Assembly: GCA_003344405.1 (NCBI GenBank)
Contig: NOWV01000011.1
Coordinates: 930,001-994,000, forward strand
Reading direction: 5' to 3'
From: Trichoplax sp. H2
Taxonomy: Eukaryota
DNA length: 64,000 nucleotides
A program made the translations under genes and the position numbers. This document shows, in pieces, positions 19,668-48,340 of this stretch. Each line of letters begins with the position of its first letter. The stretch's first letter is position 1. Under the pieces are notes generated by a model that worked only from the letters and a program-made list of their open reading frames with translations, ran no database searches and was not told where the DNA came from.

Positions 19668-20270
19668 TTATCTATGAATAGGATGAGTGAATGCCATTCG
19701 TACTATTTGAGTAATCGGCTGAAATTCGATACCTCTCTTGCAAAATAAACGATAGCCTCTTCTATATTGTATTAAACTTGCCATCAATACTTCAGTTGTC
19801 GTTTCTTCATCAGGTTCGTTTACTTTAAGATATCTCATAGATAATATCGTAGCGATATAAACTATTGGTGTACTAGCAATAGTTGCATTTAACGATATAA
19901 ATGACCATTTGTTCGAATCCAATAAAACTGTAAATATAAACGTAACAAGTAAACATGTAGTAATTATAATATTATATAAAATTTGCCAAAGATTCAACGA
20001 TACTTCAGGAGCATAGTATCGTATATAATCGAATAGTTCTGAAGGTATTCCAATACACTCACAATCATCGATGTTATTTATTTTGTAATAGACTCGACTT
20101 AACTTAACTCGATAGTATTCGATCTTTTCATCACTTAAGTGTTGACTAATGCATGCTAGCAATTCATTTAATCCATCATTGTATCCATGATAGTAATAGA
20201 TATTATAATCGGGCGATAATGTTACTTGGACAGAATCGTCGACAGTATCATCGTGTAGTGATGCTCCCAT
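19668..20270 (-). pseudogene. 3' fragment of the uncharacterised multipass membrane family (copy G)
   Basis: Contains GIPSELFDYIRYYAPEVSLNLW and YRRGYRLFCKRGIEFQP, matching the intact copies. The 5' part is replaced by unrelated sequence. Confidence 0.85.
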
Positions 20271-20323
20271 ATTTGATTATACGGATAGCTATATTTGATA
20301 TAGTCAGGTTGCTTTGGATAGAT

Positions 20324-20730
20324 ACTAGTATAAACTCCCGTCGCTATGCTGAAGGATTACGTTGTTATAATATTACGAACTCCCGTCGCTTTGCTGATGG
20401 ATTACATTCTTATAATATTATACTTCTAGATTATTATTTTACAATAATACTTTAAACGTAACTCGGCCTTGCATCGCTACGCTGATGGATTACGTTCTAT
20501 ATACTGTACGTTAACGTTACAAAATACATTACTGTTACTATTCAGGAATTTGATTTTACCAAATTTCATTAATATTCATTCACGTTAAAAATGATGATTT
20601 GAACAGCAAAATGCATTGCATGAAGACAATACAAGTAATGAGCTGTTTATTAACATCCATTCACGTTAAAAGTGATGATTTGAACAGTATGTATAATGCA
20701 TTACATGAAGACAATAAAAGTAATGAGCCA
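20324..20730 (-). mobile_element. Helitron-like 3' terminus (hairpin plus CTAG|T) with reiterated hairpins and an internal ~80 bp duplication; 5' end not identified
   Basis: Minus strand reads CCTTCAGCATAGCGACGGGAGTTTATACTAG|T. The hairpin variant recurs at ~20380-20400 and ~20472-20490. Duplication at 20577-20643 / 20659-20729. Confidence 0.45.
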
Positions 20731-21255: not shown

Positions 21256-23229
21256 TTAGAATCTTAAAGGTCGAGTTGTAGCTATTCCTTCATTTTCACG
21301 AACTTCTTTAGCTATACTTGAGTAAGCGTCAAAACGGTCTAAACTTCGTTTCGTTATTGCTTCTGCTAAATTTTGTTCAACTCTATCACAACCCTAACAT
21401 GATCAATAAATTATTTTGTTATTCAAGCTCAAATAAAGTAACAACTAAAAGTTATTACCAGTTAATATTATATGCAAACCTCCATACATTCCAAGCTTTC
21501 AGAACTGAATACTACCGATTGCTTTACTTGCTCTAGATAAAACTGCAGCCATGGAGTAAATGTCAATTGTAGCATTAGCTATGCGGTTTAATATAAACTG
21601 CTGATCGATGATATCGCGACCATGTTTAAGTAGTAACTTTTCTATCGTAGCACCAAATTCTTCAACGCGTTGTGTAATCATCTTAGCACAATCGCTAAGT
21701 TCAGGTGCAGTTACTTCGAGTAGCTCTTGACTGTCAGCTATGCCTATAAGACGTTTCGATCGTTTAACACCTTGATCCCATAATGTACCCAAATTGGAGA
21801 TTGGCTGTTGTAACGCTTTCTGTAGTTCTTTCATATTCTTTCCAGCATACTGAATACCATTTAAGGCAATAAATAGGCGTAAAATATCGTTGGTACCTTC
21901 AAATATACGACAAATTCGTATATCTCTCATGAAACGTTCTACTTGATTTTCTCTCATGAATCCCATACCGGCTAATATTTGTATGCAATCGTCGCATACA
22001 TTCCAAGCTGATTCAGAACTGAATATTTTACTGATAGCAGCTTCAACTTGGAATTCTTTAATACCTCTATCCATGTTATTGCTAACAGCATAGGTGACCG
22101 ATTCGACAGCGTAATGAGAGAGACCCATTTGAGCAATTTTTTCTTGTATCGATTGATATTGGATTAAATGTTGGCCAAATTGAACTCGATTATTGGCATG
22201 TTCGATTGTCTTAGCGGTGAACATCCTCATTGCACCAGTCATGGCGGCGCCCATAGCATATCGACCTTCATTGAGTATGTGCATAGCTACTTTGAAACCC
22301 TCTCCGACTTTACCTATCACGTTCTCGACCGGTATCTTCACATTATCGAAATAGACTGCAGCCGTATTGGATGATCTTAATCCCATCTTTTTCTCTGGAG
22401 GACCGCTAGTCACACCTCCGAAATCTCTCTCTACTATAAAAGCTGTCACTGCTTGAGATTGTTGATCGGAATCGTCCTTCTTGAAAGGAACTTGAGCGAA
22501 TACAGTCATAACATCGGCTATACCACCATTGCTAATCCATATTTTGCTGCCATTCAATATATAATGCTTGCCATCGTCATCAAGGACAGCTTTGCTAAGA
22601 ATAGAATTGGCATCCGATCCAGCTGAGGGTTCGGTTAAACAGAATGCAGCAATTTTCTCACCAGTTACTAAACTTGGCAGATACTTTTGTTTTTGTTGCT
22701 CGTTACCGAAGAGTACGATGCCTTTATAACCGATGCCTTGATGACTACCCAGGAATACAGAAATGGATGCATCAAAGGATCCGATGATTTCAGTTATTCG
22801 TGCATATTGTGTTCTCTTTAATTGCATCCCACCATATTCTTGCGGAGCTAGCATACCAAGGGCACCAAGCTCTTTAAGTACTTCTATTGATTTCTTGGGC
22901 AATTTTTCATCCAGATCACATTGTGATGCATCATGAATTTCACGAAAATATTTCTCAAAAGGATCAATCATTAATTTGACAGTATCTTTGGATTCATCAT
23001 CTAATGCATCAGGGTAAGGGAATAGCTGTTGTGTATTGACCTTGCCACAATATAGCCCTAAAGCAAATGAATCATCTCCATCACGGTTTGATGATGGCTG
23101 TTCTGATAGAAGGCGTACACGATTGATTGTCATAGCATGATGATCAATTTTAATGTTATTATAACAGTAGCGTCCAATTCTAGCAGTGGAATTCACAATA
23201 AATCGAAATTGAGACATGGCTGTCGCCAT
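21256..23229 (-). CDS. ACADVL: Very-long-chain acyl-CoA dehydrogenase. One large exon (ORF stops at 21499) plus an out-of-frame terminal exon 21393-21256; possibly truncated or pseudogenising
   Basis: Motifs SFALGLYCG...LFPYP, AFCLTEPSAGSDA, NGSKIWISNGG, GPPEKKMG, IFEGTNDILRLF (catalytic Glu) and the VLCAD-specific C-terminal extension. Likely start MATAMSQ at 23229; the ORF extends to 23298. Confidence 0.9.
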
Positions 23230-26036: not shown

Positions 26037-28235
26037 CTAAGCTATCACAAAGGAGTCTAATAACTGGTTATAACTTCTTCGATGATGACGACTACGATAA
26101 TGAAAAGCCGTTCTTACCATTTGAGTAATCGGCTGAAATTCATTATCTCTTCTACAGTACGATCGATAACCTCTTCGATACTGAACTAAAGCTGACAATA
26201 ATATTTCTTTGCCTGTTTCTTCTTCGGTTTCAGTTATTTTAAGATATCTCAAGGAAAAGCTTGTGACGATAAAAGCTATTGATGTATTAGCAATTGCCGC
26301 ATTCAATGATGCAAATGACCAATCGCTGGAATCTATCTAGTACGACTCTTAATAGAAATATCGCAAAAACACCAGTAGTGATGCTAATATTAAAGAAAAT
26401 TTTCCAAAGATTCAACGATATTTTGGGTGTATGGTATCGTAGATAATCGAATAATTCTGATGGAATGCCGATACATTCGACACTTTCGATATTAGCAATC
26501 TCGTAGTAGACTTGACTTAACTTTGCATGAAAATCTTCTACTTTATTAATCTGTAAATATTGGCTGATACATGTTAATAATTAATTTAATGCATCGCTGT
26601 CTACTTTTTATAGGTAATTGTCATAATCTTTATGTAATGTGACTTTCACAGTATCATTATCCATTGTAACATATCGAAATGTGACTTTCGATATTCCGTT
26701 TATAAATTCATAATTATTTTGCAACAAAAGTTGTCGAAAGTAATGTTGAATATGTTGTTTTAATTGATAATCTTGTAACATTTCGGGTAAATCTATTATT
26801 ATTATAGGATTATGAATATTATCGGAAACGACGAAATTGACTTCTAATGTTTCTTGCTTAGCGGCTTATATTTGGTCAATTTGTGATTATACATTTTTTC
26901 GTGATTGGACAATACGTTCAGGAAGCTTTTCTTCCTTTCTTATATAAGAATCGATCGTATTTGTAACCTAGTGTATGTAGGGCAAAAAACAACAATTACA
27001 AAACTAAAATGAACAGAATAGGCGAAAAGAAATGTTGCTACATTAATTATGATACGGAATATCAATTGAAATGTTGACCAAAGCTGGATTATGGTAATTA
27101 TAGAATAAAATAATGCGATGCAGAATAAAATGGGTATCAAAATATAATTAATATATTTAAATTTAGGATTTATAAATAAGAATTGACGATTTAGTGTGAT
27201 TGTTAGAAGTTTACATAGAAATAATAGAATTCGTAGAAGTTCCAGAGCCCCGAAAATAAAAAAGGCAAAGAAATTATTAACGTAAGTAGGCTCTTAATAG
27301 ATTTTAAGAAGTTTCAAGATTTTAAATGATTCGTAAGATCTCTTACATAATTTATAAACCGTGGATTTAGTTGCCCGAAGTTCATTTTAGTTAAGATTTT
27401 GTAATTTAATGTCGACAGAGAATGATACCGATGTTGATATTGCAACGAGTTAGTTCGCCAGGATTGTCTTACACGAGCTAGCATTATTATTAATGTTAAA
27501 ATAAGATGACTAACCAAAATACGATAAAAGTCATACTTAATTTTTGATGGCAATCTTCGAATAGATGTGATAATTGACAAATAGGGTAATAGTTATAGTG
27601 TGATGGAAATGAATAATTCCAAAGATCCAATAAAAATCAAGATACACATAAATTTCGTTTAACACCATTCAGCTAGAGATTACCATGCTCACTTTCTCCA
27701 AGACAGAAATATTCAATTGTTTGTAATCTCAGCTTACTCATAACAGAAATGCTGACTGTATCAATTTCCGTTACCCTACAAGAGAAATATAAAAGATATT
27801 GCGGGTAAAAAGGAATACCATTGGCTAATCAACACCGAATAGATGCAGCAATATCATGTAAGCATGCAATAGACTATATTGCTGCGATATAAACTAAATA
27901 ACTGATAAAGCAAGAAGTATTTTATAATTTCACAAGCCTTAACGCTAATTTACCATTTCAATATCACGCATGTTCTAATGAGTTCTGCAACGTTACCTCG
28001 CTGACTTTTCTAAACAGATATTGATGACTTTTACCAGTGTTACTGCAGCCAATGCAGTACTTAAAATAAGGGTAAATATCCTCAGGTATAGTATGCACTA
28101 TCCGCTATTTGCAGGGTTTAAACACGAACTAACATTGATCTTAGAATTGGATTCTTCCATTTCACAACATGAAATGTTCCCGCGAGAGATATAAAACCCA
28201 ATTTTATCCATACGTTGTACAAAGCTGCGCTTATT
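26037..28235 (-). pseudogene. Pseudogene of the multipass membrane family (copy F): exon-1 remnant ~28235-28006, exon 2 27775-26037
   Basis: Remnant KRSF...ISCCE...SCL...*...LRIFTLILSTALAAVTLVKVIN, donor GAAAA|GTCAG, acceptor cttgtag|G GTA ACG GAA ATT GAT. Exon 2 is broken by frameshifts into ORFs 27314-27580, 26940-27140 and 26037-26306, ending YRRGYRSYCRRDNEFQP. Confidence 0.88.
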
Positions 28236-28239
28236 TCTT

Positions 28240-28710
28240 CTGAAGAGGGTTGGACAGGCTGGTCCATAGCAGCTGTTATTGTTGTATATTAGCAGCGTTC
28301 ATTAATACGATTCAGAGGATTGATATCACTGCTTGATATCTTTTAGATACAGAACATTAGTCCTGCACCCTTTATAAAAACTTTGTGTTCGTGACTATTT
28401 CTTTCAAGCAAGTTTATTAACAGGATAAAGTATACGCCTTCTATACTGTTAAGGTGTCCAATTCGGGCTTATTCATATCATTCCAATTATCTATGTGAAA
28501 CAGGCATGGTTGCTATAAATATTGGAACTTCACCAGCTTAGTACCGTGTCCAATTTGTGTTTGTAGTTATTTCTACCAAACGAACTTGTTGTACGCCTAT
28601 ATGATATACGCCTATATTGGTAGGGAGTTCATTTGTGTTTATCTTAAGATACCCATTAACTATTTGAAACATACGAATAGATGATTTCTTAGGCTTAATC
28701 ACTTCATTTA
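28240..28710 (-). mobile_element. Possible highly decayed non-LTR retrotransposon RT remnant replacing the 5' half of copy F
   Basis: Fragmentary translations (KPKKSS..., YLKINTNELPTNIG) resemble the post-YADD region of non-LTR RTs, with many stops and frameshifts. Pattern recall only. Confidence 0.2.
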
Positions 28711-29593: not shown

Positions 29594-32500
29594 TTAACTG
29601 ACGCTCTGATATTCCAATAAATCAGAATTTCGTCGAGGATTAGGATTAGTAGAGAATATCTGCATCAGTTGTGAAAGAGGCTGAAATTCAATACCTCTTC
29701 TACAAAATAATCGATAGCCTCTTCTGTATAATATTAAATTAGCTAATAATATTTCTTTTGTTATTTCTTCATCAGACTCGGCTACTTTAAGATATTTCAA
29801 AGATAGAACTGTAGCGATATAGACGATTGGCGTATTAGCAATAGTTGAGCTTAACGATGTAAATGACCAACATTTTGAGTCATATAATACTGCCAAAATA
29901 AATGCCAAAAATATGCATGTCGTAACCATGATGTTAAAGAAAATTTGCCACAGACTCAACGATACTTCAGGTGCGTAATATCGTAAATAGCCAAATAATT
30001 CTGATGGAATTCCAATGCATTGACTATCACCGATATTATGGATCTTGTAATAGACTTTACTTAACTTTGCTTGAAAGTATCCTGCTTTCTTACTTTGTAG
30101 ATGTTGACTAATGCATGTTAATAACCCGGTTAAATTGGTGTTATCCGTGAAAAATAGACAGTGATTGTAGTCTTCAGGCAATGTTACATCGACATCAGTA
30201 TCATTGTCATTTATACTGTATTGAAATACAATTCTAGATATTCCATCAGATAATCCATAACCAGTTTGTAACAAAATCTGTTGTAAATATTGTCGTACAT
30301 GTTGTTCTATTCTATCGTCTTGTAACATTTCCGGTAAATCGATTGTTATTATATGATTATCAATACTACCAGAGATGAAGAAATAGACTTCTAACTTTCC
30401 TTGTTTAGCAGTTAAGATATCATCAATTCGTGATTCTACCTTTTGCTGTAAATGGATGATATACCTAGGAAGCATATTTCCCTTCTTTTTATAAGAGTCA
30501 ATCAGTTTCATAATATAATGTACATAAGGTATCACGACGACAATAGTAATGCTAAAATAAACAGAATGGGCGACGATAAAAGTTGTTACATTAATAATGG
30601 TACGGAAAATGACTTGGAAAAAAAGCCAAAATTCGGCTATCGTAAAAACAGAATATGTTAGAGCTACGAGAGATAAGATAGCAGACATAATAGAATTAAG
30701 ATGACGATGTTTAGAATGTGTAAAGAGAAAGTTACGTTTCAATTTAATTGCAAGCACTTCAGAGATAAATAATGTTATTCGTAAAAGTTCGATAGCACCG
30801 AAAATAAAGAAAGGTAAACAAATTATAAATGTCAAGAAGCTTTTGATAAATTTTATCACATGGAAAGATCTCAAATCATTTATTATGTCTTTAATACGAA
30901 TTGTAAGTTGAAAGTGCAACTGGCTATAATTACTTCGCATTAAGATTTTATAATTGAGTGTAGTTAGAGAAGCTCGTTTTAGTTGATACGCTAACGAATT
31001 GGTTAACCAAAATTCTTTTAGGTGAGCCGCAATTATGATTATTGTAAACAATCCATGTAAGATACCAACACCAAAATACCTGAACACTATTGGCTTGGGC
31101 ACTGATAGATGACCGATGAAGGGAAAAACCATGAAAATAGGTGGATAGATCTGTGCTACAACAGACGCATATCCTCCAAAAGCAGCAAGAAAGAACAAAA
31201 CGATATGCATCAGGACATGTTCTATTTGTACCCAACGATTGCTAATTGTACTTTCTCGAAGATAAAAGTATCCGGCTGTCTGCAACTTTAACCGGTTTAT
31301 AATAGAAACGCTTACTGAATCAATTTCCGCTTTTCTATAGTGCAAAGACATAAATTTGCTATTAAGAGCAGAGATTTCGCACTTTAAAATCACACCATCA
31401 GTTACCATCAACTTAATACTTTTACGAATTTTCTGTTATGTGCAGCACTAAAAACTAAGTATTACCTGAAACTGTAAATTATACTTTTAGACTGTATATC
31501 TAGACCGAAATTTGATCTAAATAAATGCAGATATCGCCTTTGGATCTTTAATAGCTAAATGCTAGTTAAAGAACACTTTTCCAAAAATTCTAAATACCAT
31601 CAAAGAACCACTAAAACTAACTTAAATACCATAGCTTTAGCCATAATATACAATTGTTATAGGGTATTCTCGATCAGTTCTTAACTAGCAAATTGCTTGT
31701 AAAGTGAGTATCATTAGTTTATGATCACCGCTTTAACGCTTTAAAATGCAATATTGTAGTTATCTTGAATATCAAATGTTTAGTTAAGCTATAGGTTCCT
31801 TCTTGTGACTTTACGGTATATAACTTCATATGGATTGTGGTAAGGTAATTTTAATAAGGAAATTAGCAAGCAAGTAATTGAGGTGAAAGGAAAAATAGGG
31901 TCCAACTAGTGAAAAAGAAGTCATATAAATAGTATAAGATGCAAATTCACATTGTATAAGAAGATAGAGTGAGACTCTATCATGTAGAAAGTAGGAGTTA
32001 TATTGAAAGAATTATATAATTATAAAAAAAAAAGAACTGTAAAGGAAATATAATATCTATGCTAAATATTCTAAATTGATAGCGAGTAGGATAGAAATAA
32101 AATATAAGGTATTGACTAGAAGTTATTCACAAATGTGTTTACGAAATTGCAGTAGACAAGGAAAGATCTTCAAATTTTTAGTAGTGGAATTGTGTAGAAG
32201 CGAGAAGGTTGTATGCTAGTAACTATTAATTGAATTATCAAAAGAAAATGACAGTCTAAGAACCAATCTTAATATTGAATTTGCTTTAAAAGCTATACAT
32301 GGAGATTACTGTACTCTATTCAAGAATATTGTTTAGTCTGGTACTTTATTACACAGTGATAGACTTAAAAATTAAACGGTAAAGTTCTACAGAGTGATTT
32401 GACTCCATCAGAAATGAAATTGTGTTGCATCTTTTAACAGTTGTAGAAGTTTTAAACAAGAACTTGCTGTCAACTCTATTTGCTACGAGTTCTGTGTGAT

Positions 32501-33315
32501 TATTGTACAGAAAAGAAGCATGTTTATCACATACCCTATAAAAATTATTGATGTTATAGTACTTACTTTTCTAAGGAATCGATATACATATTAACCACCC
32601 TAGTCAAAGCTATTCCTGCCAATGTAGTACTTAGGATGATAGTAAATATTCTCATTAGTGGCGCATACCAAAGTATTTTTTGAGGGGTTAGACATTTATC
32701 AAAATTGATATCATCACTAAGGTCTTCATTTTCGCAGCATGAGTAATCTACGCTACTAATAGAATTTCCTTGGATAGTAAAATTTCTTCTACATAGAGTA
32801 CCATACGGTATCTCCGAAAAATTCTGGTTCTTTTTCAAATTTAAATGAAATACTTTGCTCAGAACTTTAAATATAGTTAATCCTCGACATAAATCAGTGG
32901 TGATGTTACTGTAACAGTCAGTACTAGATTCTGTGATATTAATTCGCAATTCCGATGAGAAGATCGCATAAATACTCAAGCTTGTAGTAATATAATCAGT
33001 AGGTAATGCGAAAATAGCTTCTCCAACATCTTTTCTTAACCATGCATAAAAAATAGGGCTTTCATGGACTGAACTTCGAAGATGGTCATTGCCATTTCTT
33101 TTATAAAGATGAAAAAATACAACTCGAACCGATGGAGATTTAATAATCTTCCTGAAATCATGATATATTCGAGTTTCATTTAGTACGCTCAATTGACAAT
33201 TGGAATGGCACTCAGTCTCCACCCTTTCCAATACTACAAGGTGGAAGGATATAAACAGCCAGAAGATCGATACGCAAGTGAACATGGACAAATTATGCAT
33301 AGACAGAGCCATCAT
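29594..33315 (-). CDS. Uncharacterised multipass membrane protein with Cys-rich ectodomain (copy E, ~829 aa). Exons 33315-32567, 31334-29594
   Basis: Exon 1 ends GAA AA|GTAAGT and exon 2 starts cactatag|A AAA GCG (phase 2, in frame). Signal-like hydrophobic N-terminus and family motifs shared with the paralogues. Confidence 0.88.
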
Positions 33316-34040: not shown

Positions 34041-36211
34041 CTGATAAAGAAGAAAGATAAAGTAATTATCCAATAATCAACAGGCTTCTTTTGCTTAATT
34101 ACTACTGTAAGTATATGAAATATATTAGAACTGAACCATACTATTTTAAGAATTTAATGACTGATTTATTCTCATTATCTGAGGAAAATTTCAGCGTATT
34201 TTGGTCCATTCACATTTACCGTAAATTGCATAATGCATTCAATCATATGATTGTTATTAAGTTCCTCTTTCATATTATGATTACTAATAACAATGACGTC
34301 AAAGTCATTTAGACTTTTTATTTTGTTCAGCAATGAGGCATTTTGTAGCTTTATTTCACATCATGACAATTTCATAAACGGATATAATTATCTTTGAAGT
34401 GTTAATGAAATGACTGAATGATTTTTCGATTATTTTTTTGATTATATAATTTATAAAAAGCGATATTATTTTTGACTAAATTAGGTTACCATAGCTATTT
34501 AGCAATCGTGCATAATGAAGTACAAAAAATTAGCATTAAAATGATATAATTCTCTATGTCATTTTATAATTATTGACAAGGGCTGCCGTTCTCAGTTTAG
34601 CTATTTTATTAAACCAAATTTTGTTGGTTTCGTAAATAATACATCGATAACAAACTAGTAGTCAGGTAGTGCTTACTTTGACTAAGAAGAACTTATTTTT
34701 GGGGGCCTTTTAAGTCAGCCTTTGACAAATTGTCAAATTTCTATTTTCTCTTATCAATGAAATACGACATTTATTATAGCTGTTAATGGTAGCAACATGG
34801 CAGTTGTAAACACCACGCATTCGCTAAGAATTAAATGTATTTTCCGTTCATTGCCCTATTAAATTACTTTTAAACTGCTCCTTAATATACCGCATGCAGT
34901 GTCATTTAAGCATAGCATTTACAGACTTAATACTTGTTAGTAGCGATGATACAGAAACAATATTCTTCATCAGAAATTTGATCAAGTTCTTGATACTGTA
35001 TCTGTAGATGATCATCATGACTCAAACGATTTTGCTAACTTCGGGTATTAGTAACGGCAATATCTTTGCTGATCTACGCTATTAACTTATTTTTTATCAA
35101 TTCTCGATAATTTAATTCTAATAATTGGTGCCTGTAACTATTTATATAATTTTGACTTATTATGTATTAATTAATATACTGTAAATTGAAATGTGACGCC
35201 ATTTAGGAGTCCCTGTTACAAGATAAATTATCACTGTGAAACCATTCAATCTATTAAAATAGGTCGACAAATTAAAAGAAAATGATATCAGATTTGGTTT
35301 CCATACTATTCATGTGAATCAATGCTATCGTTGATCCCTAATATCAAACGATGCTGAAAAGTGGACAATTTTGCCAAGGTAGATTGGCACACTAGGCATA
35401 AGACCTGATTTAGTACATGCTCAGAATCTGTATTGCAAAATTGTCGATTAACATAAAGGATCATATATTACATTATGACGCTTTATTCCACGATTTTTCC
35501 ACCATTATTTGTACCAGACTATTTCTATTTTATGTCTTATTAGTCCTATTACTAATAGCAATCATAAGATAAAAGACTTTAAGTAGCAGGATATCACAAT
35601 TACTGGTACAGTTTAACAATAAGTATGTAAATATATGTATCTAAGTAAAACTTTCTGCAGTTATGTAGGCAAATTCTTACCAAATGAAGGATCTGATTTG
35701 TTTGCCTATACTTGATGTAAGTACTTTGTTAGCTTAGCAATGCAATAATGAAATTAAGATTTTTTATTAATTCATCTTTGAAAGATAATTTAGTCACAAC
35801 TAATTATGAATTAGGATAACGAAATACGGTACTAAAATCCGATTTAGTTTCATTCAGTATTTTTAATATTTAAGACAAGTAAAAACAAATTAGTACGCGT
35901 CTATCTTTTGATATTCTCTGAAAAGTTAGTTAATAGATTCAAAATGATCAAATTTCTTGTCACTAGTAGCTAAAGCTTATCCTTAAGATAGAGCTTTGAT
36001 AGTGAGATAGTGTTTTTTCCGACTGATCTAAATCAACATTAGCAAGAAATGTGATAACCGAATTCGGAATCTGGAAACTACTGTAGCAAAAATTGAAACT
36101 TTATTAATTCGTAGCATTATGTCTATTATTATTGTGTATTTAGAATTAAGCAAGTACGGTAAGTCAACGCTTCAATGGCTACGAGAAAACTAATAGGCAT
36201 AATTGGCTAAG

Positions 36212-36452
36212 TTATATTGAATATTTGTAAGATGTTTTGAAGATTCTCTTTAATTGTATAAAAGGATGGAATTCAATTCCTCGGGAACAGAAAAATCGAT
36301 AACCTCGGCTATATGGAACTATGTTAGTCAGTACGACCTTATGAGCTTTTTTTGGCTGAGCTTCAGATATAGTTCAATATTTTAAGGCTGTCTTCGTCGC
36401 TAAAAAAAACGATAGGCATATAAGCTATGGCTTCATGAATTGAAGTAATCAT
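36212..36452 (-). pseudogene. Short 3' fragment of the membrane family (copy D), closest to copy C
   Basis: Minus strand with a frameshift and a stop: AIAYMPIVF.ATKTALKY*TISEA...VLTNIVPYSRGYRFFCSRGIEFHPFIQLK, versus copy C IVRYRRGYRFFCTRGIEFHPFLQLK. Not in the ORF track. Confidence 0.85.
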
Positions 36453-36800
36453 GGCTAGGTTATTTCATTATATTTTTTATATTCATTATATACTCATTTA
36501 TTTATTATATTTATTAACATTATATTATATATTTCGTTATACTTTATTTGTTTTCTCACTTCACAACAGCTTACAGCCTTACACGCTGCTCTACCGTAAC
36601 TACGACATTGTACGCAATTATAGTCTTCAATAATAGTATCCTTTTCTACTAAAATCCTAGTGCATTTCTCTACATGGCAGTTAAATCTGCTGCCACTGAC
36701 TTATCGATTCCTTTATCACACTTAAAATTGTAAAAGAATATGCCAGAGAATGCCGATGCATCACAATTATTTTCACGTACCATAACAGCTTAGGTTCAAG

Positions 36801-39770
36801 CTAGAAATTGGCTACATTTATCTTTGCTTGCGCCTGATTAGCTTCAATATCTACGCCTGCACTGCTGGGATATGTTGTAAACATACTCTTTAGTTGTAAA
36901 AACGGATGAAATTCGATTCCTCGGGTACAAAAAAATCGATAACCTCGACGATATCGAACGATATTATTCACTAGGATTTTATCAATCATTTCTTGCTTGA
37001 TTTCAGCTATAGTTAAATATTTCCGGGCAATGGTCGTTGTCACATAGATAATGGGTGCATTAGCAACTGCAGAGCTGATTGAGAATACCGTTGGTGAATC
37101 TGAATCAACTACAACGGTTAATATAAATGTGATAAATAAACCAGTTGTGATAGTAATATTGAAAAATACTCGAGGTAAACTAAGAGATATTTCAGGTGCA
37201 TAGTACCGCAGATAAGAGAACAATTTTGCCGGGATTCCGGTACAGACAAGATCATCAATATCATCCATTTGGTAATAAATTTTAGTTAAATTATTACGAA
37301 ATTCTTGTTCAGTTAAACCTTTCAAGTGAATACCGACGTCTTGAGCCAGTTTTTGTAATTTGTTGCTCTTACGATGGCAAGAGAGATAATTATTATTGCA
37401 CTGGGGCAAAGTTATCAGCATTGTCGTACTTGACGTTTTTTCGTACTGAAATATAACTTTAGATATTCCGTGTGCTAAGACGATTGTGCCATCTCTTATT
37501 AGTTCCTCTAACGTATCCTGAATTTTTTTCTGAATACAATCATCTTTCAACATTTCCGGCACATCAATAATGACATTATCAGTGATAGCATTATCATCCA
37601 ATTTAAAATAGACTTCTAATTTGCCTTCGGTTTGTTCAAGTAGCTCGTCAATTTCTTTCTCAACTCTGTCATGTACTTGGATAATTCGTTGTGGTAGCAT
37701 ATGACCTTTGCTATCATACGCCTCCATAGCCTTAATAACGTAGTGAAAGTAAGGAACGACAATAACTGTTATTACGCTAAAGTAAATGGAATGGGCAATA
37801 ACAAATTCTGCCACGGTAATAACAATGCGAATAATGAGTTGAGTTAATAACCACATTCCCAAAATTGTCAGTGACGAATACAGCAATGAAATAATGAAGA
37901 AAAAAGACGATAATAATCGATATCCGATTGTCTTTGAAGCAGTTGACAGAAAGCTACATCTTAAATGTAATGTTAACGTATCTGTAATAAATAATATAAT
38001 GCGTATAATTTCGATTCTAGCCATAATAGCAAATGGCAATATTATTAGAAATGACAATATCGCCTGCATCATAGCGGTATAACGATGTAACTTTCGGTAC
38101 CGTATTATATCTTTGATGCAATTTTTAAATTGAAAATGTAACTGGCGATGGCTGTTTTCAGTTAAGAACTTGAACGATAAAATCGTAACTTCATCCTGCT
38201 GCTGCGATAGATATGGATAATACTGGCCAAAAAATTGCTGGATGTGCGGGAAGAGAACAAAAAATGTACAAGTGGCATAAATACCAAGGGCGATGTAACT
38301 AGCCAAGGAAGCACGATCGGGTATCTTCCTATTGCGAATGTCAGGATAAATTAAAATAGAATGTGGATAAGCTTGTACTAGAATAGATACAGTAGATCCA
38401 CCGGATGCAATTGCTGATACAGCAATGAACTGACAGCAAAACCAAAGTTGTACCCAAAGACTATTTTTTACCAATTTCCGTAAATAAAAATACCCAATAG
38501 GATGAAATCTTAGTGATGTTAGGATACGAATTTTCTGACCGTCAACTTCAGTTGTTCTGCAGCAAAATAAAATGAAAAAGAGAGTCAATAAGAGCAACTG
38601 GAACTTTATTATAAAAATTTACAATTAGATTACTTTGCTGAACATTATCATGAGAGAACTTGCCGGATTATCAAACTGATTGACAAATACAGCAGTTTAA
38701 ATTAATTAGTTACAGTTGTAAAAACCTTTCGATATTCGTATTATATCTTCAACAGTACTGAGCAAATATACTGTTAGAAGGTTGAAATGACATGGTCATC
38801 AATGGAGTAAGATACGAATAAATTAAAAAGTCAAAGTATACTCATGTATGAAAATGAAATTTACTATAGTTGTAATCTGTCAAGATAGTGACGATAGAGT
38901 AGACTAAGATTTAATTAATTTCGAAAGAGCGATTGAAACTATAGCTTGTATTATGAAATTAAATGATAATTTATTCACCTTCGTATTTACTGTAATTAAA
39001 TCTTTTTTAATTTATATCCATTTATTTTATCTATCAGATTAGACTTACTTTCCTAAAGCGTTCATGACTCTATTGATAATCTTAACCAGTAATGCTCCAC
39101 TAATCGGAATACTGATGATAGCTGTAATTATATTCATAGCTTTGACATACGGTTTGACTGATCTAGGCTCTAAGCATTTCTTAGTATCTACTTCCAATTT
39201 TATAGTATCGCCATCACAACAGGAATAATAGGTAGAACTAGAGTCGTCATCGATTTCCGAATTAAAATCCCTCCTACACACAGTACCGCAATTTTTAGCA
39301 GTGCAATTGTGCATCGTTAGCAATCGAACAAACTTTGCTAAGGTAAAGAAAATAATGTGCCGTTTACATTCCAGAGATGATGCATCGTAGCAGCTTTGGT
39401 TAACTTCTTTGAGATAGATGTTTAAATTGGAGGTAAAAATTGACGTTAAACTCAAAGTGGTGCTCATGTAATCCGTAGGCAAGGCGAAAATTGCTTCGCC
39501 AACATCTTTTCTAATCCATGCATAGAAGATATTCTGTGCCGAATTATAAAGACTATTATTTCCTTTTTGCAGGTGGAAATAAACCACACGGATTGATGAA
39601 ACTCTGACAATTCTACTAAAATTGAGGTAGGACTGTGCCTCGTTTTCAACTTGTAGCTGACATTCCTTCACACATTTCTTGGGGTCTTCGTCGATAGTGG
39701 AAACTTGATTAAAAGTTGAGATAATCCAAAATAGTGTTATCCAATAGAATCTAAAAAGAAAGTATGCCAT
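36801..39770 (-). CDS. Uncharacterised multipass membrane protein (copy C, ~825 aa). Exons 39770-39049, 38556-36801
   Basis: Donor GGA AA|GTAAGT and acceptor ttgctgcag|A ACA ACT (phase 2, in frame). Signal peptide, CxxxCQL, FYAWIRKDVGEAIFALP, CGTVCRRDF, YSCC, PEML, GIPAKLFSYLRYYAP, YRRGYRFFC. Confidence 0.88.
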
Positions 39771-42884: not shown

Positions 42885-45880
42885 TCAGATATTCTTGCCG
42901 GTAAGTGCAATTTTCACTAGTTTAGACAAAGGTTTATATTCGAGACCTCTTGTACAGAATAACCTATAGCCTCTTCTATAGTGTATCAGATTAGCTAATA
43001 GTATTTCAGATGTTTCTTTCTCGGTTGCTAGAGGAATTTTGAAGTATCTTAGTGTTAGAGTAGTACCAATGAATAGGATAGGTGTGTTAGCAGCAGCAGT
43101 AGTCAATGATGTGAAAGACCAGGAATGAGAATGAAGCAATAGCGTTAAAAGAAATGTCAGAAATAATCCTGTAATAATCAGGAAGTTTACGACAACTGAC
43201 CATAAGTTAAGGGACACTGTAGGAGCGTAATACCGTAAATAATGAAAAAGCTCTAACGGAATCCCAGAATAACGCGCACTATTGATCCTTGTAATGTCAT
43301 AAAATGTTTTCACTAATCTTTCACGATGGGTGTCGATAGAGGTATTTTGTAAGTGTGCACTAATCTCTGTCAATAAATTATCTTTACCTTCACTATTAGC
43401 ACACAGAATAGGATAGTTCTCATTTTCAGGTAGTGTTACCTCAATAATTGTACTGCCATCTCTTCTATAATTTAGGACCATCTGGGACATTCCAACATTG
43501 ATTTCAAATCTATGGTCTTCAACAAGACGTCGTATATAGTTTTGAATTGTAATTTCGATTACAGTTCCCTTTAACATTTCCGGTACATCAACTTCTATAG
43601 CATTATTACTACCAACTAAGAAATCAATTATTAACTTTCCATTTTCTGCATTGAGTATCTTATCAACTTCCTGCTCCACGGCTGAGTCTAACTTCATAAT
43701 AAGTAGTGGTAGTGAGTGTAATTTTTCTGTATAATCATCCAAGTAGGCAATTACGACGTACAAATACGGAATAATCACAACAATAGCGACACTAAAGTAG
43801 ACGGAATAAGTTATAATAAATGTTGTTACAGTAATGATAATACGAAAGAAGGCTTGAAAAATAATCCAAAATTGGAATACTGTTATAACAGAATAGCAGA
43901 AAGCTATCAAAAATAAAACTGGTGCCAGAATGCAATTCAGTACTTTCAATTTGGAGTTGATAGGGAGAAGATGATATTTTAAGCGCAATGTCAATACCTC
44001 CGTTAAAAATATCACAATGGGGATGACAGCGCTTGATTTAGTTAAAAAAAATGGTAGATAGACCAAAACTTGTATTAAATTATTGAAGAATACCACTATC
44101 TTCAATGATAATAAATTTTTCGTCAAATCCGTTATCATATTCTTAAATTGTAAATTTGTTCGCCCAGCGCTCATTGGCGCTAAATATCTATCTTGAGGTA
44201 AAAGTCTGCTTCTATCTTGCCTTTCAGGTTGATGAAGGCAAATTAATTGCTTTAGGTGTGTTATTATAATGATTATGGTAGCAAATAAATGTAATATACC
44301 AGCAGGCACGGTAGCAGCTGTTATAGAAGGCGGTATAGCAACACCGTAAATTTCTGGAACAATCATAAACGCTGATGGATAGATTTGCATCACCAAGGCT
44401 GCATAACCGAATGCAGTTAGCGCGAGCCATAAGATTAAATAGAAGAAGCAGTAATAGGCATGTTTCCAACATGCTCTAGTTGAGCTACCTTGAACGTAGA
44501 AGTATTCGATAGTCTCTAGCCGTAAAGTGTTCAAAATATGGATATGAACAGAATCCATTTTAAAATTTCTAGGAAGGAATAGATCCAACCGAACATAAAA
44601 TAGGAGATAAAAAGCGAATTAGCTGTTATGGTATGCGCCAAAAATACTCTAGAACATGATTGTGAAATAACTACAGCACATATCGAAAATTATTCATTCC
44701 TACTTTTGCACTTAAATATAAAGATATGGCAGAATCAACAATTCTATATGATACTTGCTTAATTTGAGATGTTGTCATGATTTAAAATTCAAAACATTCA
44801 AATCTTTCCGTTGCTAAGTTAATATTTAATAGCTGTGCAGTAAAGTGAAAAAGACAGTACGGCACTTTCCTGTCGCCTCAATATTAACAGAAAGTAATAC
44901 TGGACTAGCTCAATTTCGCTCCTTTCTATATTGCTTGCTTAATCTATAACGACTACGTCATCATTTAATGATAAAAAAATAAATTTGAAATTGCTACTAT
45001 TAAGAATTTTTATTCATTCCAATTAAAAGTATTTCTATTGGTAATTAAAATAGTATCGATAAGGTAATAAGACAGACTTTAATATTTATTAGAGCTGAGG
45101 CTATTAATTATCACGTTACTGTTAGAATCATTTTCCTTTCGTTTACCTCTCCAATGTACCCATGTACATATTGAAAATTTTAACTAACAGAGCGGCACCC
45201 ATTGGGATGGTAAGAAAAATAATGAGGAATTTCAGGAATGGCGCATACCATTTCACTTCTTCAAGAAGTAGACATCGTTGAACATCTACAGGTAATCCTG
45301 GAAAATCTAAATCACAACATGAATATCGAACTTCTTCATGAGCAGTTCTTTCGGTAGCCATGAAACTTCTTCTGCATATATTACCGCAATACCTTCCGGT
45401 ACAGTTGTTGGTTAATCGAGTAAAATTAATTAATGTTTTGAATAAAATAATCGGTTTACTCGGTAGGACCGTCGCGTTTTTAAAGCATCCCTTAGTTGAT
45501 TCTACCAGTTTAATTTTCATACTTGATGTAAAAACTGTGTAAATACTAAGGCCAGTGGTTATATAATAAGATGGCAAAGTAAAAATGGCCTCACCCTGAT
45601 CTTGTTTTACCCACGCATAGAAAACTCCATGCTCTATGAATTGAAGGTGTTGATCCCCAATGTAAATCTTGAAAAATAGGACCTGATTCCACGATAACCT
45701 CGTTGCTTTAACAAAGTTCGCATAGGCTATGGTCTCGTTAACAACGGTAAGTTGGCAACGAGACTCAGATCTTGCAGCAATGGGCTGCAAAAATAGTGCA
45801 AAGCAGATGAGAATAAGCATCTGCCTTACGGCTATCCATTGGATAGGCGATCGGTGATTGCTAGAGCACTCAAATACCAT
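42885..45880 (-). CDS. Uncharacterised multipass membrane protein (copy B, ~785-805 aa depending on start). Exons 45880 (or 45820)-45147, 44568-42885
   Basis: Donor GAG AG|GTAAAC and acceptor ttcctag|A AAT TTT (phase 2, in frame). Signal peptide MLILICFALFLQPIAA and the same family motifs. Confidence 0.88.
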
Positions 45881-47185
45881 AGCTGATAGCAAAGATAACG
45901 AAAACGATTTAGGCAAATAATATAATCAAGAAATTACACCAGCTTAAATACTTCCCATTCAAAAGCTTGAATACTATTTGTGCTGCCATTCATTCGTACA
46001 ATCATATTTTCTATCGACTCTGAACTTATCATTGATGCCTGAATGTGATTTGTTTGACATCCATCAGTACCATCGGTTTCTATTGAATCGTTATTTTGAA
46101 TTCAAACATAGTATAACAAAGCTGAAATATAATATGATAGAATTATTCCTCATGAACTTATAAAGAATTTAATACAGTGATTTAAATTTAGAGATTAGAA
46201 TGGGTGACATTAGGGAGCCAATCTTAAATTCAATATGCAGACAATTATGGTACATTGAATACGAATAAGCATTTGTTTAGTCTTGATTCCCTTTCCGTGC
46301 TATTCATCTCCCATTGCTATCAGTAAAGCAACTAATCAATCTATTACTCAATTGATAATATCTTGAATATTAAGTGTCGTACGGTAAATAAAATGAATGT
46401 TGTCAGATTGATAGTTATAGTCTATCAAAAGATATTATGCGAGTATTATTTAAGTTAAGAGTCCTATTTTTTTATGTTCAACGAGAATTTGATTCATAAA
46501 TTGTTTCCAACAGATTGTAAAACTTTTGTTTAACAATTCTATGGTACGGCTTTGGCCATAATAGTATAAGTTCGTATGAAATAAATGCTGTAATAGATGA
46601 CTGCTGTTTTTTTGCCTTAAACTATCAAACACTTGCTTACCTGAAATCTGAACTAATCTCTAGTTTAACCACTTCAATGAGTCCGTTAATTGCCCGAACT
46701 AATACATAAACATAAATTGACATTGTTTCAATCTTTCCTGAAATCATAATAGATAAAGTGGATATCCATAAATTTTAAAGTACCTTGTGAAACCATGTTA
46801 CAGTTAATAAAGAAAAGTCATTTCTGAATATTATCACTACGTGGTATACTAATCGACCGCTAGGCATATCTTAGGTTAAATTATAAATTATCCAATGAAT
46901 TACAAGCACGTTATGAATTAAAGAAAATTCTTAGCTAATAAGCACTAGAATACAACTCGATTACTTAACGGAAACAAATAAAGAGATATTGAATACAAAT
47001 ATATGAAATTATGATTGCAAATACGACAATTACATTTCTATCTTTCTTAAAACTAAAAGATTGTGCTTCAGTGGTTGGTAGATTGTTATTATCATTAATG
47101 ATAACGACAAGACATCGATTGATTATTCATTAGGTTGTTCAGAATTTGCTCGCTGAGCCTTTTATTGTCTATAAACCTGTATAAG

Positions 47186-48340
47186 TTATATGCTGTCTGG
47201 GTTTGGGGTGAAATTTAAGCGGTTAAAATAAGCTGCTTGTGTCATTTGAGATACAGGTTTGAAGTTAATTCCGACAGTACAAAATAACCGATATCCTTGT
47301 GCTTATCGAATCAAGCTATTTAATATCACTTTCTTGGTAGTCTTATCGTCCACTTAGGTTATTTTTAAATATTTTAACGATAGCGAAGTGACAACGTAAA
47401 AGATCGGTGATAGCCGATAGTAGCTCTTAAAGATTCGATTGTCCAAGAATTAGAATGGAGTGCGATGGTAAGAACCACAATGATAAATAATTCGTTCGCA
47501 ATAATAAGGTTAAACTTTATTTCCCAAAGATTGAGAAAAACCATGGAGCATAATATCTTACGTAAGAATATAACTCATTCCTTTGTCGAAAGTTAGATCA
47601 TGAGCTTATTCGATAATAATTCATTTTATCGATACTCAGCTATCGTAGGAGTATAATTTTCATCTTTGACGATAGTATTGTATGTGTATTGCAGCGAAAT
47701 AACGAATTTCAAACATAATGTCTCTTCGTCGTCAAAAAATTTTTCTCGATGTATTTCTTCAGCCTATGAACAAGACAGCTATTGCTCTTGATTTATTCTA
47801 GCTGCTCTGCTAATGTCAAGAGACTAAACATGCATATTTTACTCAAATTTATAAACATCGCGGTAAATTCACGTTTGCCTTACGCCTAATGGCTTTATTT
47901 ATATAACATATTATCCTTATAAGAATTTCTTTCACGACAAGAAAATTCTTACAAGCATGAAAAGAATTATTATCCATAAGTACACAACCGGACAATTGGA
48001 TCGCATTTTCAACAAATATATATATAAAATGTAGCTCTTACCAACGTTTTACAGCTTGTTTGATAATTTAAAAGTATTTGGTCTGTAAAAATGTAGTAAC
48101 CATTTTCATATCTTTGTCATATGAATTTGTCACAACGAGATGTGTAGAACCGAAGTGATTTGTAAAGATTATACTTTATAATAATAATAGCTTGCATTTC
48201 TAAGTATAATACCTAATGCTGTTAAACATCACAAGATTATGCTTATTCGACAGAAAGTGCCTCTTAAAGCCATACATGCACGTAATGTATTTCGGTATTA
48301 CATATAATGGTCACAACTGATGGTTTCTAGGACGGTGTTT
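47186..48340 (-). pseudogene. Heavily decayed exon 2 of the membrane family (copy A); 5' boundary approximate
   Basis: Minus strand: ELYSYVRYYAP..LNLWEIKFNLII...LHSNSWT...PIFYVVTSLSLKYLKIT*VDDKTTKKVILNSLIR*AQGYRLFCTVGINFKPVSQM. Weaker upstream traces (LETI, LTALG). Not in the ORF track. Confidence 0.8.

What the first reader, a model, noticed from the sequence alone, without database searches (positions are those of the whole stretch)
19668..48340. Tandem array of an uncharacterised receptor/channel-like family: seven copies undergoing birth and death
Seen: seven same-strand copies. Three are intact (29594-33315, 36801-39770, 42885-45880) and four are broken (19668-20270, 26037-28235, 36212-36452, 47186-~48340). 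Intact proteins are ~800-830 aa: signal peptide, ~200 aa Cys-rich domain (CQL.V.NE, FYAW...D.GEAIF.LP..Y, G..CRR.F, YSCC, CL), a TM helix, ~6-7 more hydrophobic segments, a ~200 aa soluble domain (PEML; GIP..LF.YLRYYAP.[VI]SL), two more TM segments and a strongly conserved tail YRRGYR[LF]FC.RG[IL]E[FY].P. I recognise no named family; the layout is not a standard 7TM GPCR. Inference: divergent ectodomains on a conserved membrane core, with frequent pseudogenisation, suggest a sensory, immune or allorecognition receptor/channel repertoire. I recall similar unannotated proteins in cnidarians and molluscs but cannot verify this.
Basis: partly seen in the sequence, partly recalled or inferred. Interest (0 to 1): 0.9.

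Follow-up and report, generated by a model that had tools for sequence, protein, structure and literature searches.

The report
Placozoan-only membrane protein gene array
This stretch of Trichoplax DNA holds a cluster of three working and four decayed copies of a large membrane-protein gene that is known by name only from placozoans and resembles no characterised protein, so what it does is still unknown.

Summary
Four degenerate copies lie beside them. The genome is Trichoplax. g1 and g2 are orthologues of the T. adhaerens proteins TRIADDRAFT_55304 and 55305, both annotated "uncharacterized".

An RNA-seq contig carries exactly the predicted g2 intron junction, and RNA contigs also cover g1 and g3.

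The proteins have a signal peptide, a glycosylated ectodomain with 6 invariant Cys, about 9 membrane helices (N-terminus out, C-terminus in), a roughly 150-aa cytosolic alpha/beta domain before the last two helices, and a conserved tail.

A profile search of 1.84 billion representatives gave 36 hits. Every named one is Trichoplax. There is no Pfam, PDB-sequence or Foldseek match, although the AF2 model is usable (pLDDT 79, pTM 0.73).

The claim of "divergent ectodomains on a conserved core" fails: ectodomain identity is 36%, TM4-7 is 38%. Differences between close lineages are 24 nonsynonymous to 9 synonymous.

Function is unproven. A receptor or sensor is my best guess (about 0.35).

The parts
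29594..33315 (-). g1: intact two-exon gene, 829 aa. Exon 1 is 33315-32567, the intron is 32566-31335 (1232 nt), exon 2 is 31334-29597, and the stop is 29596-29594.
   Evidence: ORFs and splice model. T. adhaerens TRIADDRAFT_55304 (P0041, 828 aa) has the same exon junction and differs at 8 of 828 residues. RNA contigs lie at 30107-30425, 30717-31256 and 30879-31334; the last ends exactly at the acceptor.
36801..39770 (-). g2: intact two-exon gene, 825 aa. Exon 1 is 39770-39049, the intron is 39048-38557 (492 nt), exon 2 is 38556-36804, and the TAG stop is 36803-36801.
   Evidence: RNA run X15 has a contig joint 38556->39049 that skips 492 nt with CT..AC ends, which is the predicted intron. TRIADDRAFT_55305 (P0042, 825 aa) differs at 7 of 825 residues.
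36210..36800 (-). g2 3'UTR with an intron (36780-36400, GT..AG). It splices onto a decayed partial copy of g2's own C-terminus, the relic at 36230-36406.
   Evidence: Joint 36399->36781 skipping 381 nt in RNA runs X16 and X17. Donor and acceptor were read. The relic gives tblastn E=1.7e-15 and 55% identity to g2 aa 745-802. It is 75% identical in DNA to 36872-37037 (D9) and has one in-frame stop.
42885..45880 (-). g3: intact two-exon gene, 805 aa. Exon 1 is 45880-45147, the intron is 578 nt, and exon 2 is 44568-42888. The start may instead be the second ATG at about 45820.
   Evidence: RNA contigs lie at 42838-43015 and 43023-43318 (X16) and at 45286-45825 (X15). No splice joint was recovered for this gene.
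19659..20276 (-). C-terminal fragment: an open 202-aa ORF covering the end of the cytosolic domain, TM8-9 and the tail. There is no upstream part in the window.
   Evidence: tblastn gives 60% identity to g1 aa 623-821 and 96.8% to aa 625-781 of TrispH2_011856 (P0002). P0002's first 624 residues have no near-identical match in the window. The tree pairs the fragment with 011856 (SH-aLRT 100), and the fragment has the longer end branch, 0.057 against 0.009.
26073..28268 (-). Pseudogene of the g1 clade, covering aa ~170-808. It has frameshifts and stops, and the N-terminal ~170 aa are missing.
   Evidence: The HSPs fall in at least 4 different frames. There are 5 in-frame stops in 26335-26985. 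The weak N-terminal end at 28268-28113 has E=0.003.
47195..47579 (-). Relic of the last ~120 aa of a lost copy, with frame changes and 2 stops.
   Evidence: tblastn E=1e-18 to g1 aa 694-815. Nothing further upstream matches at E<=1. Stops are shown.

Best explanation
This is an old tandem cluster of a taxonomically restricted placozoan gene family.

Shown:
- Each intact gene has two exons and encodes an 805-829-aa membrane glycoprotein.
- The protein starts with a signal peptide and a ~180-aa ectodomain with 6 invariant and 2 nearly invariant cysteines and about 4 N-glycosylation sequons.
- About nine membrane helices follow, with the N-terminus outside and the C-terminus in the cytosol.
- A ~150-aa alpha/beta domain (motifs DVPEML and GIPxELFxYLRYYAP) lies on the cytosolic side between helices 7 and 8.
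- An ordered basic-aromatic tail (YRRGYR[LF]FC) ends the conserved part.
- The genes are expressed and spliced.
- Neighbouring copies have decayed.
- The family has no detectable relative outside Trichoplax-like sequences and no recognisable fold.

Inferred:
- The protein most likely sits in the plasma membrane or a secretory-pathway membrane.
- It most likely acts as a receptor or sensor: the disulfide-braced ectodomain binds an external ligand, and the signal passes through the helix bundle to the cytosolic domain and tail.
- Amino-acid turnover between close lineages is fast, as in other environment-facing receptor repertoires.

My confidence is about 0.9 for the descriptive part and about 0.35 for the receptor mechanism.
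For: Gene models and copies.

Independent annotation: TRIADDRAFT_55304 and 55305 agree with my g1 and g2 models apart from 8 of 828 and 7 of 825 residues.

Expression: the spliced RNA contig joint 38556->39049 in run X15, the 3'UTR joint in X16 and X17, and RNA contigs on g1 and g3.

Topology:
- Hydropathy and the AF2 helices.
- K+R density is 0.15-0.19 in the loops assigned inside, against 0.07 and 0.0 in the TM2-TM3 loop (305-321) and the 493-497 turn; the two other outside loops, only 4-5 residues long, score 0.16 and 0.12.
- The ectodomain averages 4.4 sequons and 9.0 Cys. The soluble domain averages 1.1 sequons.

No known relatives:
- Pfam 0 hits, or only single non-recurring weak hits.
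- PDB sequences: 1 hit at E=0.61.
- Foldseek best E is 0.45 (PDB, full length), 0.19 (BFVD) and 0.29 (PDB, ectodomain alone).
- ESM Atlas: no usable hit.

Restricted distribution: 36 hits among 1.84e9 representatives; 10 are named and all are Trichoplax.

Long-term constraint: 57 columns are invariant across 8 members that are otherwise ~35% identical.

Short-term turnover: the listed differences between the window and the RNA contigs are 24 nonsynonymous and 9 synonymous. That gives omega of about 0.74. Omega of 0.2 is rejected at p=3e-4, and neutrality is not rejected (p=0.41).
Against: No ligand, partner, localisation or cell type is known.

The ectodomain is no more variable than the rest of the protein, unlike many recognition receptors.

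Most g1 substitutions are conservative hydrophobic swaps in TM2-3, which fits relaxed constraint as well as adaptation.

The N:S count has several weaknesses. It rests on contigs and not reads. 16 differences were not listed. There is no control gene. The contigs could be alleles or recent paralogues.

Conserved polar residues inside helices (Q, R, H and S in the FQxxFRxIITVTxFIxAHSVYFS stretch) would suit a channel, transporter or enzyme equally well.

Foldseek is weak on all-helical bundles, so a distant 7TM or transporter relationship is not excluded. GPCR chains appear only at E 1.3-2.4.
Confidence: 0.35

Rival explanations
1. It is an ion channel or transporter. The nine-helix core forms or lines a permeation path, and the ectodomain and the cytosolic alpha/beta domain are regulatory, as in OSCA/TMEM63-type channels.
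For: Invariant or nearly invariant polar residues lie inside membrane helices: Q303, Q479, S496, and R/H in the FQxxFR...AHSVYFS stretch. AF2 predicts a very long (45-residue) hydrophobic helix at 450-494 with pLDDT 88-94. A cytosolic domain is inserted between helices. TM8-9 and the tail are the most conserved parts, at 46% and 43%.
Against: No Pfam, PDB-sequence or Foldseek similarity to any channel or transporter. The RND pump hits have E 0.45-2.4 and TM below 0.1. No oligomer was tested. A tandem array with many pseudogenes and an N:S near neutrality is unusual for core transport functions.
Confidence: 0.25
2. It is a resident of an internal compartment (ER, Golgi, lysosome or secretory granule) that acts in cargo handling or organelle biology. 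It would be comparable in layout to luminal-domain-plus-multipass proteins such as TM9SF or GPR107/TMEM87, with the tail serving as a sorting signal.
For: The layout of signal peptide, ~180-aa luminal/extracellular domain and about 9 helices. The conserved tail contains G-Y-[RQK]-[LF]-F. This fits the GYxx-hydrophobic tyrosine sorting signal of lysosomal membrane proteins; that motif definition is recalled, not tested here.
Against: No EMP70 or Lung_7-TM_R type Pfam hit. The tail segment is modelled as ordered (pLDDT ~88-92 for residues 761-780), not as a free linear motif. Housekeeping trafficking proteins are normally single-copy, conserved across animals and under strong constraint, whereas this family is placozoan-restricted, multi-copy and fast-changing.
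Confidence: 0.2
3. It is a polymorphic self/non-self or microbe-recognition receptor locus, with haplotypes that differ in gene content.
For: TrispH2_011856 is full-length on a separate 13,256-bp contig. Its last 157 aa are 96.8% identical to the window's truncated copy at 19.7-20.3 kb. Its neighbour 011857 has no close counterpart in the window; the best match is 48%. An RNA contig over g1 differs by ~2% with 10 nonsynonymous to 1 synonymous changes, while the T. adhaerens reference protein is identical to the window over that same stretch. That suggests a third allele.
Against: The 13-kb contig may be a paralogous region or an assembly artefact, and I had no DNA of it. The ectodomain is not hypervariable among paralogues. 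The counts are small. No homophilic or ligand binding has been tested.
Confidence: 0.12
4. It is a family drifting towards loss, with no important present function.
For: 4 of 7 copies in the window are dead. The N:S ratio is not distinguishable from neutrality.
Against: Three 805-829-aa frames stay open although they have diverged to 32-39% identity. 57 columns are invariant, including 6 Cys. Orthologues are intact in T. adhaerens. The genes are spliced and expressed.
Confidence: 0.04

Closest known systems
T. adhaerens TRIADDRAFT_55304 / 55305 and paralogues (55380, 60552, 60554, XP_002116602, 60899, 60900), and Trichoplax sp. H2 008792/008795/011856/011857/012031
   Same: They belong to the same family. 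55304 and 55305 are the orthologues of g1 and g2, about 99% identical and with the same exon junction. The others are paralogues on at least two further scaffolds.
   Different: All are annotated only as 'uncharacterized', 'predicted' or 'hypothetical' protein. The full-text search for six of these locus tags found 0 papers. The window's own annotation splits g1 into two models, P0040 (249 aa) and P0001 (604 aa).
Lineage-specific GPCR expansions of placozoans (Najle et al. 2023, PMC10580291; two passages read)
   Same: Both are large placozoan-only repertoires of multi-pass membrane proteins. In this family, the ectodomain plus the first seven helices has the N-out orientation of a GPCR.
   Different: No 7tm Pfam model hits any of 30 members. 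Foldseek hits to GPCR chains have E 1.3-2.4 and probability <=0.07. There are two extra helices, and a 150-aa cytosolic domain is inserted before them.
OSCA/TMEM63 mechanosensitive channels (architecture recalled, not fetched)
   Same: Both are multi-pass proteins with a ~150-200-aa cytosolic alpha/beta domain inserted between membrane helices.
   Different: In OSCA the domain lies early in the protein (recalled as between TM2 and TM3). Here it lies between helices 7 and 8. OSCA has no Cys-rich ectodomain. No Pfam or Foldseek match was found.
TM9SF/nonaspanins and GPR107/TMEM87-type proteins (architecture recalled)
   Same: All have a signal peptide, a ~200-aa luminal or extracellular domain, and then 7-9 membrane helices.
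   Different: Those families are conserved across eukaryotes. They have no inserted cytosolic domain and have their own Pfam models, none of which is hit here. There are no structural matches.

Membership tests
7TM GPCRs (rhodopsin, secretin/adhesion, class C, Frizzled) | Match to a 7tm Pfam profile | tested here: not met
   No 7tm family appears among the Pfam hits of 30 members at E<=5. No family at all was hit by more than 1 member.
7TM GPCRs (rhodopsin, secretin/adhesion, class C, Frizzled) | Seven-helix bundle superposable on solved GPCRs | tested here: inconclusive
7TM GPCRs (rhodopsin, secretin/adhesion, class C, Frizzled) | Exactly seven membrane helices, N-terminus out, C-terminus in | tested here: not met
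   About nine helices, with a cytosolic domain between the 7th and 8th. The orientation does match (N out, C in).
OSCA/TMEM63, TMEM16/anoctamin, TMC | Match to the family's Pfam profile or to a solved structure | tested here: not met
   No Pfam hit. None of these appear among the Foldseek PDB hits shown, where the best E is 0.45. No PDB sequence hit.
Insect OR/GR seven-transmembrane ion channels | N-terminus inside, seven helices, ~400 aa, family Pfam profiles | tested here: not met
   There is a signal peptide and a glycosylated Cys-rich N-terminal domain, so the N-terminus is outside. No Pfam hit. No Foldseek hit.
CALHM / pannexin / innexin / LRRC8 | Four-helix subunit and family Pfam profiles | tested here: not met
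   About nine helices. No Pfam or Foldseek hit.
DC-STAMP | DC_STAMP Pfam profile | tested here: not met
   No Pfam hit in 30 members. The fold could not be compared: I know of no solved structure (recalled), and no AlphaFold DB library was available.
TM9SF (EMP70) and GPR107/TMEM87 (Lung_7-TM_R) | Family Pfam profile; conservation across eukaryotes | tested here: not met
   No Pfam hit. There are only 36 relatives in 1.84e9 representatives, and the named ones are all Trichoplax.
Pfam PF28478 (identity unknown to me) | Profile match | not testable with these tools
   A precomputed PF28478.1 label is attached to 2 of the 5 proteins (P0002, P0005). The model is absent from the local Pfam copy, and no paper holds the accession. 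It may be a family built on these very proteins.

The most novel reading that the evidence does not exclude
The family would be a new membrane-protein superfamily with a fold of its own. It would serve placozoans as a polymorphic recognition system (self/non-self, symbiont or prey sensing). Haplotypes would differ in which copies are intact. The 011856/011857 contig against the truncated copy in the window, and the 10N:1S allele of g1, would be the first signs of this.
Probability: 0.12. Interest if true: 0.8.

Novelty: categorically new. Interest (0 to 1): 0.5.

Why it matters
Placozoans are among the simplest animals and have no neurons, so how they sense food, microbes and each other is largely unknown.

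This is an expressed multi-copy family of ~800-aa, nine-helix glycoproteins. AF2 gives a usable model (pLDDT 79, pTM 0.73). No relative turned up in Pfam, PDB or BFVD. That makes it a concrete candidate for a lineage-specific sensing or transport system, and possibly a new membrane fold.

Some context tempers this. Eitel et al. 2018 (PMC6067683; passages read) report that 19.0% of T. adhaerens proteins have no BLAST hit to other metazoans and that placozoan-specific duplications are common. An orphan tandem family is therefore not surprising in itself. Its value lies in its size, its modelled fold and its testability.

Tried and rejected
- Own-genome search: no genome is held for this window, so no genome-wide copy count could be made from DNA.
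- ESM Atlas: no usable hit for P0004 or P0041. The Atlas's own model of P0041 is poor (pLDDT 0.38), so its structure neighbours (TM <=0.2) mean nothing.
- Word-indexed searches with the alignments A2 and A4 were swamped. A2 returned 2 proteins, one of which was the useful TRIADDRAFT_55305. A4 returned only its own first sequence. The taxon of the most distant clade (8 unnamed ENA/Logan proteins) therefore stays unknown.
- One search was meant to include five database proteins as queries. A sub-shell error meant only g1-g3 were used.
- Earlier findings of this scan: nothing by place, sequence or words.
- Literature: 0 papers for PF28478 and 0 for six TRIADDRAFT locus tags. The broad placozoan search gave only background.
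- Parts of the genes have no RNA contig cover (for example g1 exon 1, and g3 43343-44676). With contigs this proves nothing.
- The pseudogene at 26-28 kb had no RNA cover apart from a trace in X17. This is not evidence of silence.
- MHC-like, proteasome and RND-pump Foldseek hits were rejected as noise: E>=0.29 and TM<=0.2.
- I considered a homo-oligomer prediction and did not run it. The full-length dimer exceeds the size limit, and a pass on truncated pieces would not separate receptor from channel.
Full report
**What is there.** The window is AT-rich eukaryotic DNA, 28-40% GC in 2-kb windows. Stop-to-stop ORFs on the minus strand come in three pairs: a 245-260-aa ORF followed 430-1130 nt downstream by a 577-613-aa ORF. 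Each upstream ORF ends in ...AA|GTAAGT or ...AG|GTAAAC. Each downstream ORF contains a pyrimidine-rich tract plus AG in the right phase.

Splicing these gives:
- g1: 33315-32567 plus 31334-29597, 829 aa.
- g2: 39770-39049 plus 38556-36804, 825 aa.
- g3: 45880-45147 plus 44568-42888, 805 aa.

tblastn of the three products against the window also finds the four broken copies:
- 19659-20261: an open 202-aa ORF, covering the last quarter of the protein only.
- 26112-28190: HSPs in at least four frames. One search shows five in-frame stops in one HSP. extends it weakly to 28268.
- 36230-36406: one stop.
- 47195-47579: frame changes and two stops.

A possible eighth relic at 28738-28860 has E=0.11 and is not significant.

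**Whose genome, and are the models right?** The best database hits are all Trichoplax. The cluster of the window's own g1 exon-2 model (P0001, 604 aa) also holds the exon-1 model P0040 (249 aa) and T. adhaerens TRIADDRAFT_55304 (P0041, 828 aa). P0041 equals my spliced g1 from its second Met, with the same junction (...DSLEK|KAEIDS...) and 8 differences in 828 residues. TRIADDRAFT_55305 (P0042, 825 aa) equals g2 with 7 differences in 825. The window is therefore a Trichoplax genome about 99% identical in these proteins to the T. adhaerens reference. Its own annotation splits g1 in two.

**Transcription.** I laid the contigs of three RNA-seq runs (X15-X17) and one run of uncertain type (X12) on 26001-46000.
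- X15 has a contig joint 38556->39049 that skips 492 nt with CT..AC ends. This is exactly the predicted g2 intron.
- X16 and X17 have a joint 36399->36781 (381 nt, CT..AC). Reading the sequence shows the g2 TAG at 36803-36801, a GTACGT donor 20 nt later, and an AG acceptor at 36401-36400.
- The g2 3'UTR is therefore spliced onto the relic at 36230-36406. That relic is a 75%-identical partial copy of g2's own 3' end (D9).
- A minor joint 38556->39368 (X15, depth 5 against 21.6) would shift the frame.
- RNA contigs also lie on g1. One of them, 30879-31334, ends exactly at the acceptor.
- RNA contigs lie on both exons of g3, but no joint was recovered for g1 or g3.
- Contigs cannot give expression levels.

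**Architecture.** Hydropathy, AF2 of the paralogue P0004 with a 30-row alignment (mean pLDDT 79.2, pTM 0.73) and loop statistics on 8 full-length members agree. The layout, in P0004 numbering, is:
- An N-terminal hydrophobic signal-like segment.
- An alpha/beta ectodomain of ~180 aa, with 6 invariant and 2 nearly invariant Cys and on average 4.4 N-x-S/T sequons.
- Helix 1 (209-240), then a short hairpin.
- Helices 275-304 and 322-351.
- A K/R-rich loop with an amphipathic helix (375-395).
- Helices 398-416, 421-441, a 45-residue helix at 450-494, and 496-533.
- An alpha/beta domain at 550-690.
- Helices 698-723 and 729-752.
- An ordered tail, modelled to about residue 783.

K+R density is 0.15-0.19 in the loops I place inside. 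It is 0.07 and 0.0 in the TM2-TM3 loop (305-321) and the 493-497 turn, which I place outside. The two other outside loops (417-420 and 724-728) are only 4-5 residues long and score 0.16 and 0.12, so they carry little weight. This puts the N-terminus outside, and the soluble domain and tail in the cytosol, with about nine membrane spans. A second AF2 run on the window's own g1 exon 1 gave the same ectodomain secondary structure (pLDDT 73, pTM 0.68).

**Relatives.** A profile of 7 sequences was scored by HMMER against 1.84 billion representatives and gave 36 proteins at E<=0.001.
- 33 were looked up or already labelled.
- 10 of those carry names, all Trichoplax adhaerens or Trichoplax sp. H2.
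- 23 are unnamed ENA/Logan proteins.
- 3 were not looked up.
- In T. adhaerens the named members sit on three scaffolds: 55304, 55305 and 55380; 60552, 60554 and XP_002116602; 60899 and 60900. The family therefore has at least ~9 genes per genome in at least 3 places. This is a lower bound.

No cnidarian or mollusc protein appeared. The taxon of the unnamed proteins, in particular a distant clade of eight, is unknown, and one search did not resolve it.

**No known family or fold.**
- Pfam gave nothing for the window's exons or the database relatives apart from isolated weak hits.
- Across 30 members at E<=5, no Pfam family was hit by more than one member.
- The profile against all PDB sequences gave one hit, at E=0.61.
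- Foldseek with the full model gave a best E of 0.45 in PDB and 0.19 in BFVD. With the ectodomain model the best was 0.29 in PDB. All had TM<=0.2, and none reached E<=0.001.

Two caveats apply. First, Foldseek is weak on helical bundles. Second, a precomputed label PF28478.1 on 2 of the 5 proteins refers to a Pfam model that I could neither see nor find in print.

**Evolution.** The intact copies are 32-39% identical. An ML tree (39 rows, quick search, SH-aLRT) gives these groupings:
- g1 with the 19-kb fragment, H2_011856 and the 26-kb pseudogene (support 98).
- g3 with P0003 and the 47-kb relic, in the next clade out (97).
- g2 with the 36-kb relic, P0006 and H2_011857 (99).

Branch lengths between paralogues are 0.3-0.6. 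The array is therefore old. Decay is evident, but no recent birth of an intact gene is seen.

Per-domain identity among 8 full-length members is 36% for the ectodomain, 27% for TM2-3, 25% for the following loop, 38% for TM4-7, 36% for the cytosolic domain, 46% for TM8-9 and 43% for the tail. The 'variable ectodomain, conserved core' picture is therefore wrong.

I classified the 33 listed nucleotide differences between the window and the laid contigs that fall in the three CDSs. 24 are nonsynonymous and 9 synonymous: 10:1 in g1, 12:6 in g2 and 2:2 in g3. With an N/S site ratio of 3.59 this gives omega of about 0.74. That is compatible with neutrality (p=0.41) and incompatible with omega=0.2 (p=3e-4).

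Four limits apply to this estimate:
- 16 further differences were not listed by the tool.
- There is no control gene.
- The data are contigs, not reads.
- Most g1 changes are conservative hydrophobic swaps in TM2-3.

Seven of the g2 differences are the same seven that separate g2 from TRIADDRAFT_55305. The g1 differences are absent from TRIADDRAFT_55304 and so mark a further allele or a recent paralogue.

**An unexplained point.** TrispH2_011856 (P0002, 781 aa) lies on a 13,256-bp contig next to 011857. Its residues 625-781 are 96.8% identical to the window's fragment at 19770-20240, but residues 1-624 have no close match in the window (best 59%, to g1). The neighbour 011857 matches nothing in the window better than 48%. 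The window has continuous sequence, without N, from the fragment to an ACAD9-like gene 1.2 kb upstream. This could be a divergent haplotype with an intact gene, a paralogous region, or an assembly problem. I had no DNA of that contig with which to decide.

**What it most likely does.** The following points are shown:
- It is a membrane glycoprotein.
- It is conserved in motifs over long times.
- It is expressed.
- It is multi-copy.
- It turns over quickly at the amino-acid level.
- It is restricted to placozoans among named sequences.

From this I infer a receptor or sensor that couples an extracellular domain to a cytosolic domain (about 0.35). The rivals are a channel or transporter (0.25), an endomembrane or trafficking protein whose GY[RQK][LF]F tail acts as a sorting signal (0.2; the motif rule is recalled), a polymorphic recognition locus (0.12) and a decaying family (0.04). 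None is tested functionally.

**Context.** Eitel et al. 2018 (PMC6067683; passages read) report that 19.0% of T. adhaerens proteins lack BLAST hits to other metazoans and that placozoan-specific duplications are abundant. Najle et al. 2023 (PMC10580291; two passages read) describe placozoan-specific GPCR expansions in peptidergic cells. Their supplements, which I could not open, may hold the cell-type expression of these genes.

**Verdict.** The family lies outside every known family that I could test, but it is already present in databases as uncharacterised proteins, and its function remains open. Interest is moderate (0.5).

Noticed in passing
window 21499-23319 (-): A single uninterrupted 606-aa ORF for an ACAD9/VLCAD-type acyl-CoA dehydrogenase sits inside the array, between the 19-kb fragment and the 26-kb pseudogene. 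Pfam hits are Acyl-CoA_dh_1 (1e-40) and ACAD9-ACADV_C (6e-31). It appears to have no intron, unlike its neighbours.
   Followed up: partly
window 24244-24684 (-), also 24017-24268 (-): An ORF fragment matches PD-(D/E)XK nuclease family transposase (PDDEXK_2, E=6e-11, profile positions 16-94 of 229). That family is mostly bacterial (recalled). This could be a decayed mobile element or a transfer from a symbiont. NCBIfam gave nothing useful.
   Followed up: partly
window 17782-18027 and 25238-25483: A 246-nt direct repeat, 92% identical, brackets the block that holds the 19-kb fragment, the ACAD gene and the transposase fragment. It is a possible rearrangement or insertion boundary.
   Followed up: no
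window 40962-41673: A 20-N gap at 41345-41364 is flanked by near-identical duplicates: 41175-41344 against 41504-41673 (99%), and 40962-41117 against 41365-41520 (96%). This looks like an assembly artefact at a gap.
   Followed up: no
window 29161-29416: All four laid runs pile up here (depth up to ~60 in X12), with many loose ends and a joint 29185->29283. An 83-nt repeat lies at 29063-29145 and 29334-29416 (80% identical). It is probably a dispersed repeat or a small expressed element just downstream of g1.
   Followed up: no
window 38556-39368 (-): There is a minor alternative splice of g2 from a donor inside exon 1 (joint 38556->39368, X15, depth 5). It would shift the reading frame.
   Followed up: partly
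window 40467-40813 and 33338-33854: RNA contigs lie 0.7-1 kb upstream of the g2 start. They also lie just upstream of the g1 start, where identical loose ends at 33788 and 33854 occur in all three RNA runs. These may be 5'UTR exons or separate transcripts.
   Followed up: no
window 10181-11593 (+); 57626-58694 (+); 48552-49316 (-): The flanking genes are a class I/II aminotransferase (three exon ORFs), a tRNA-His guanylyltransferase Thg1 (two exon ORFs), and a P/Q-rich 254-aa ORF with no family hit.
   Followed up: partly
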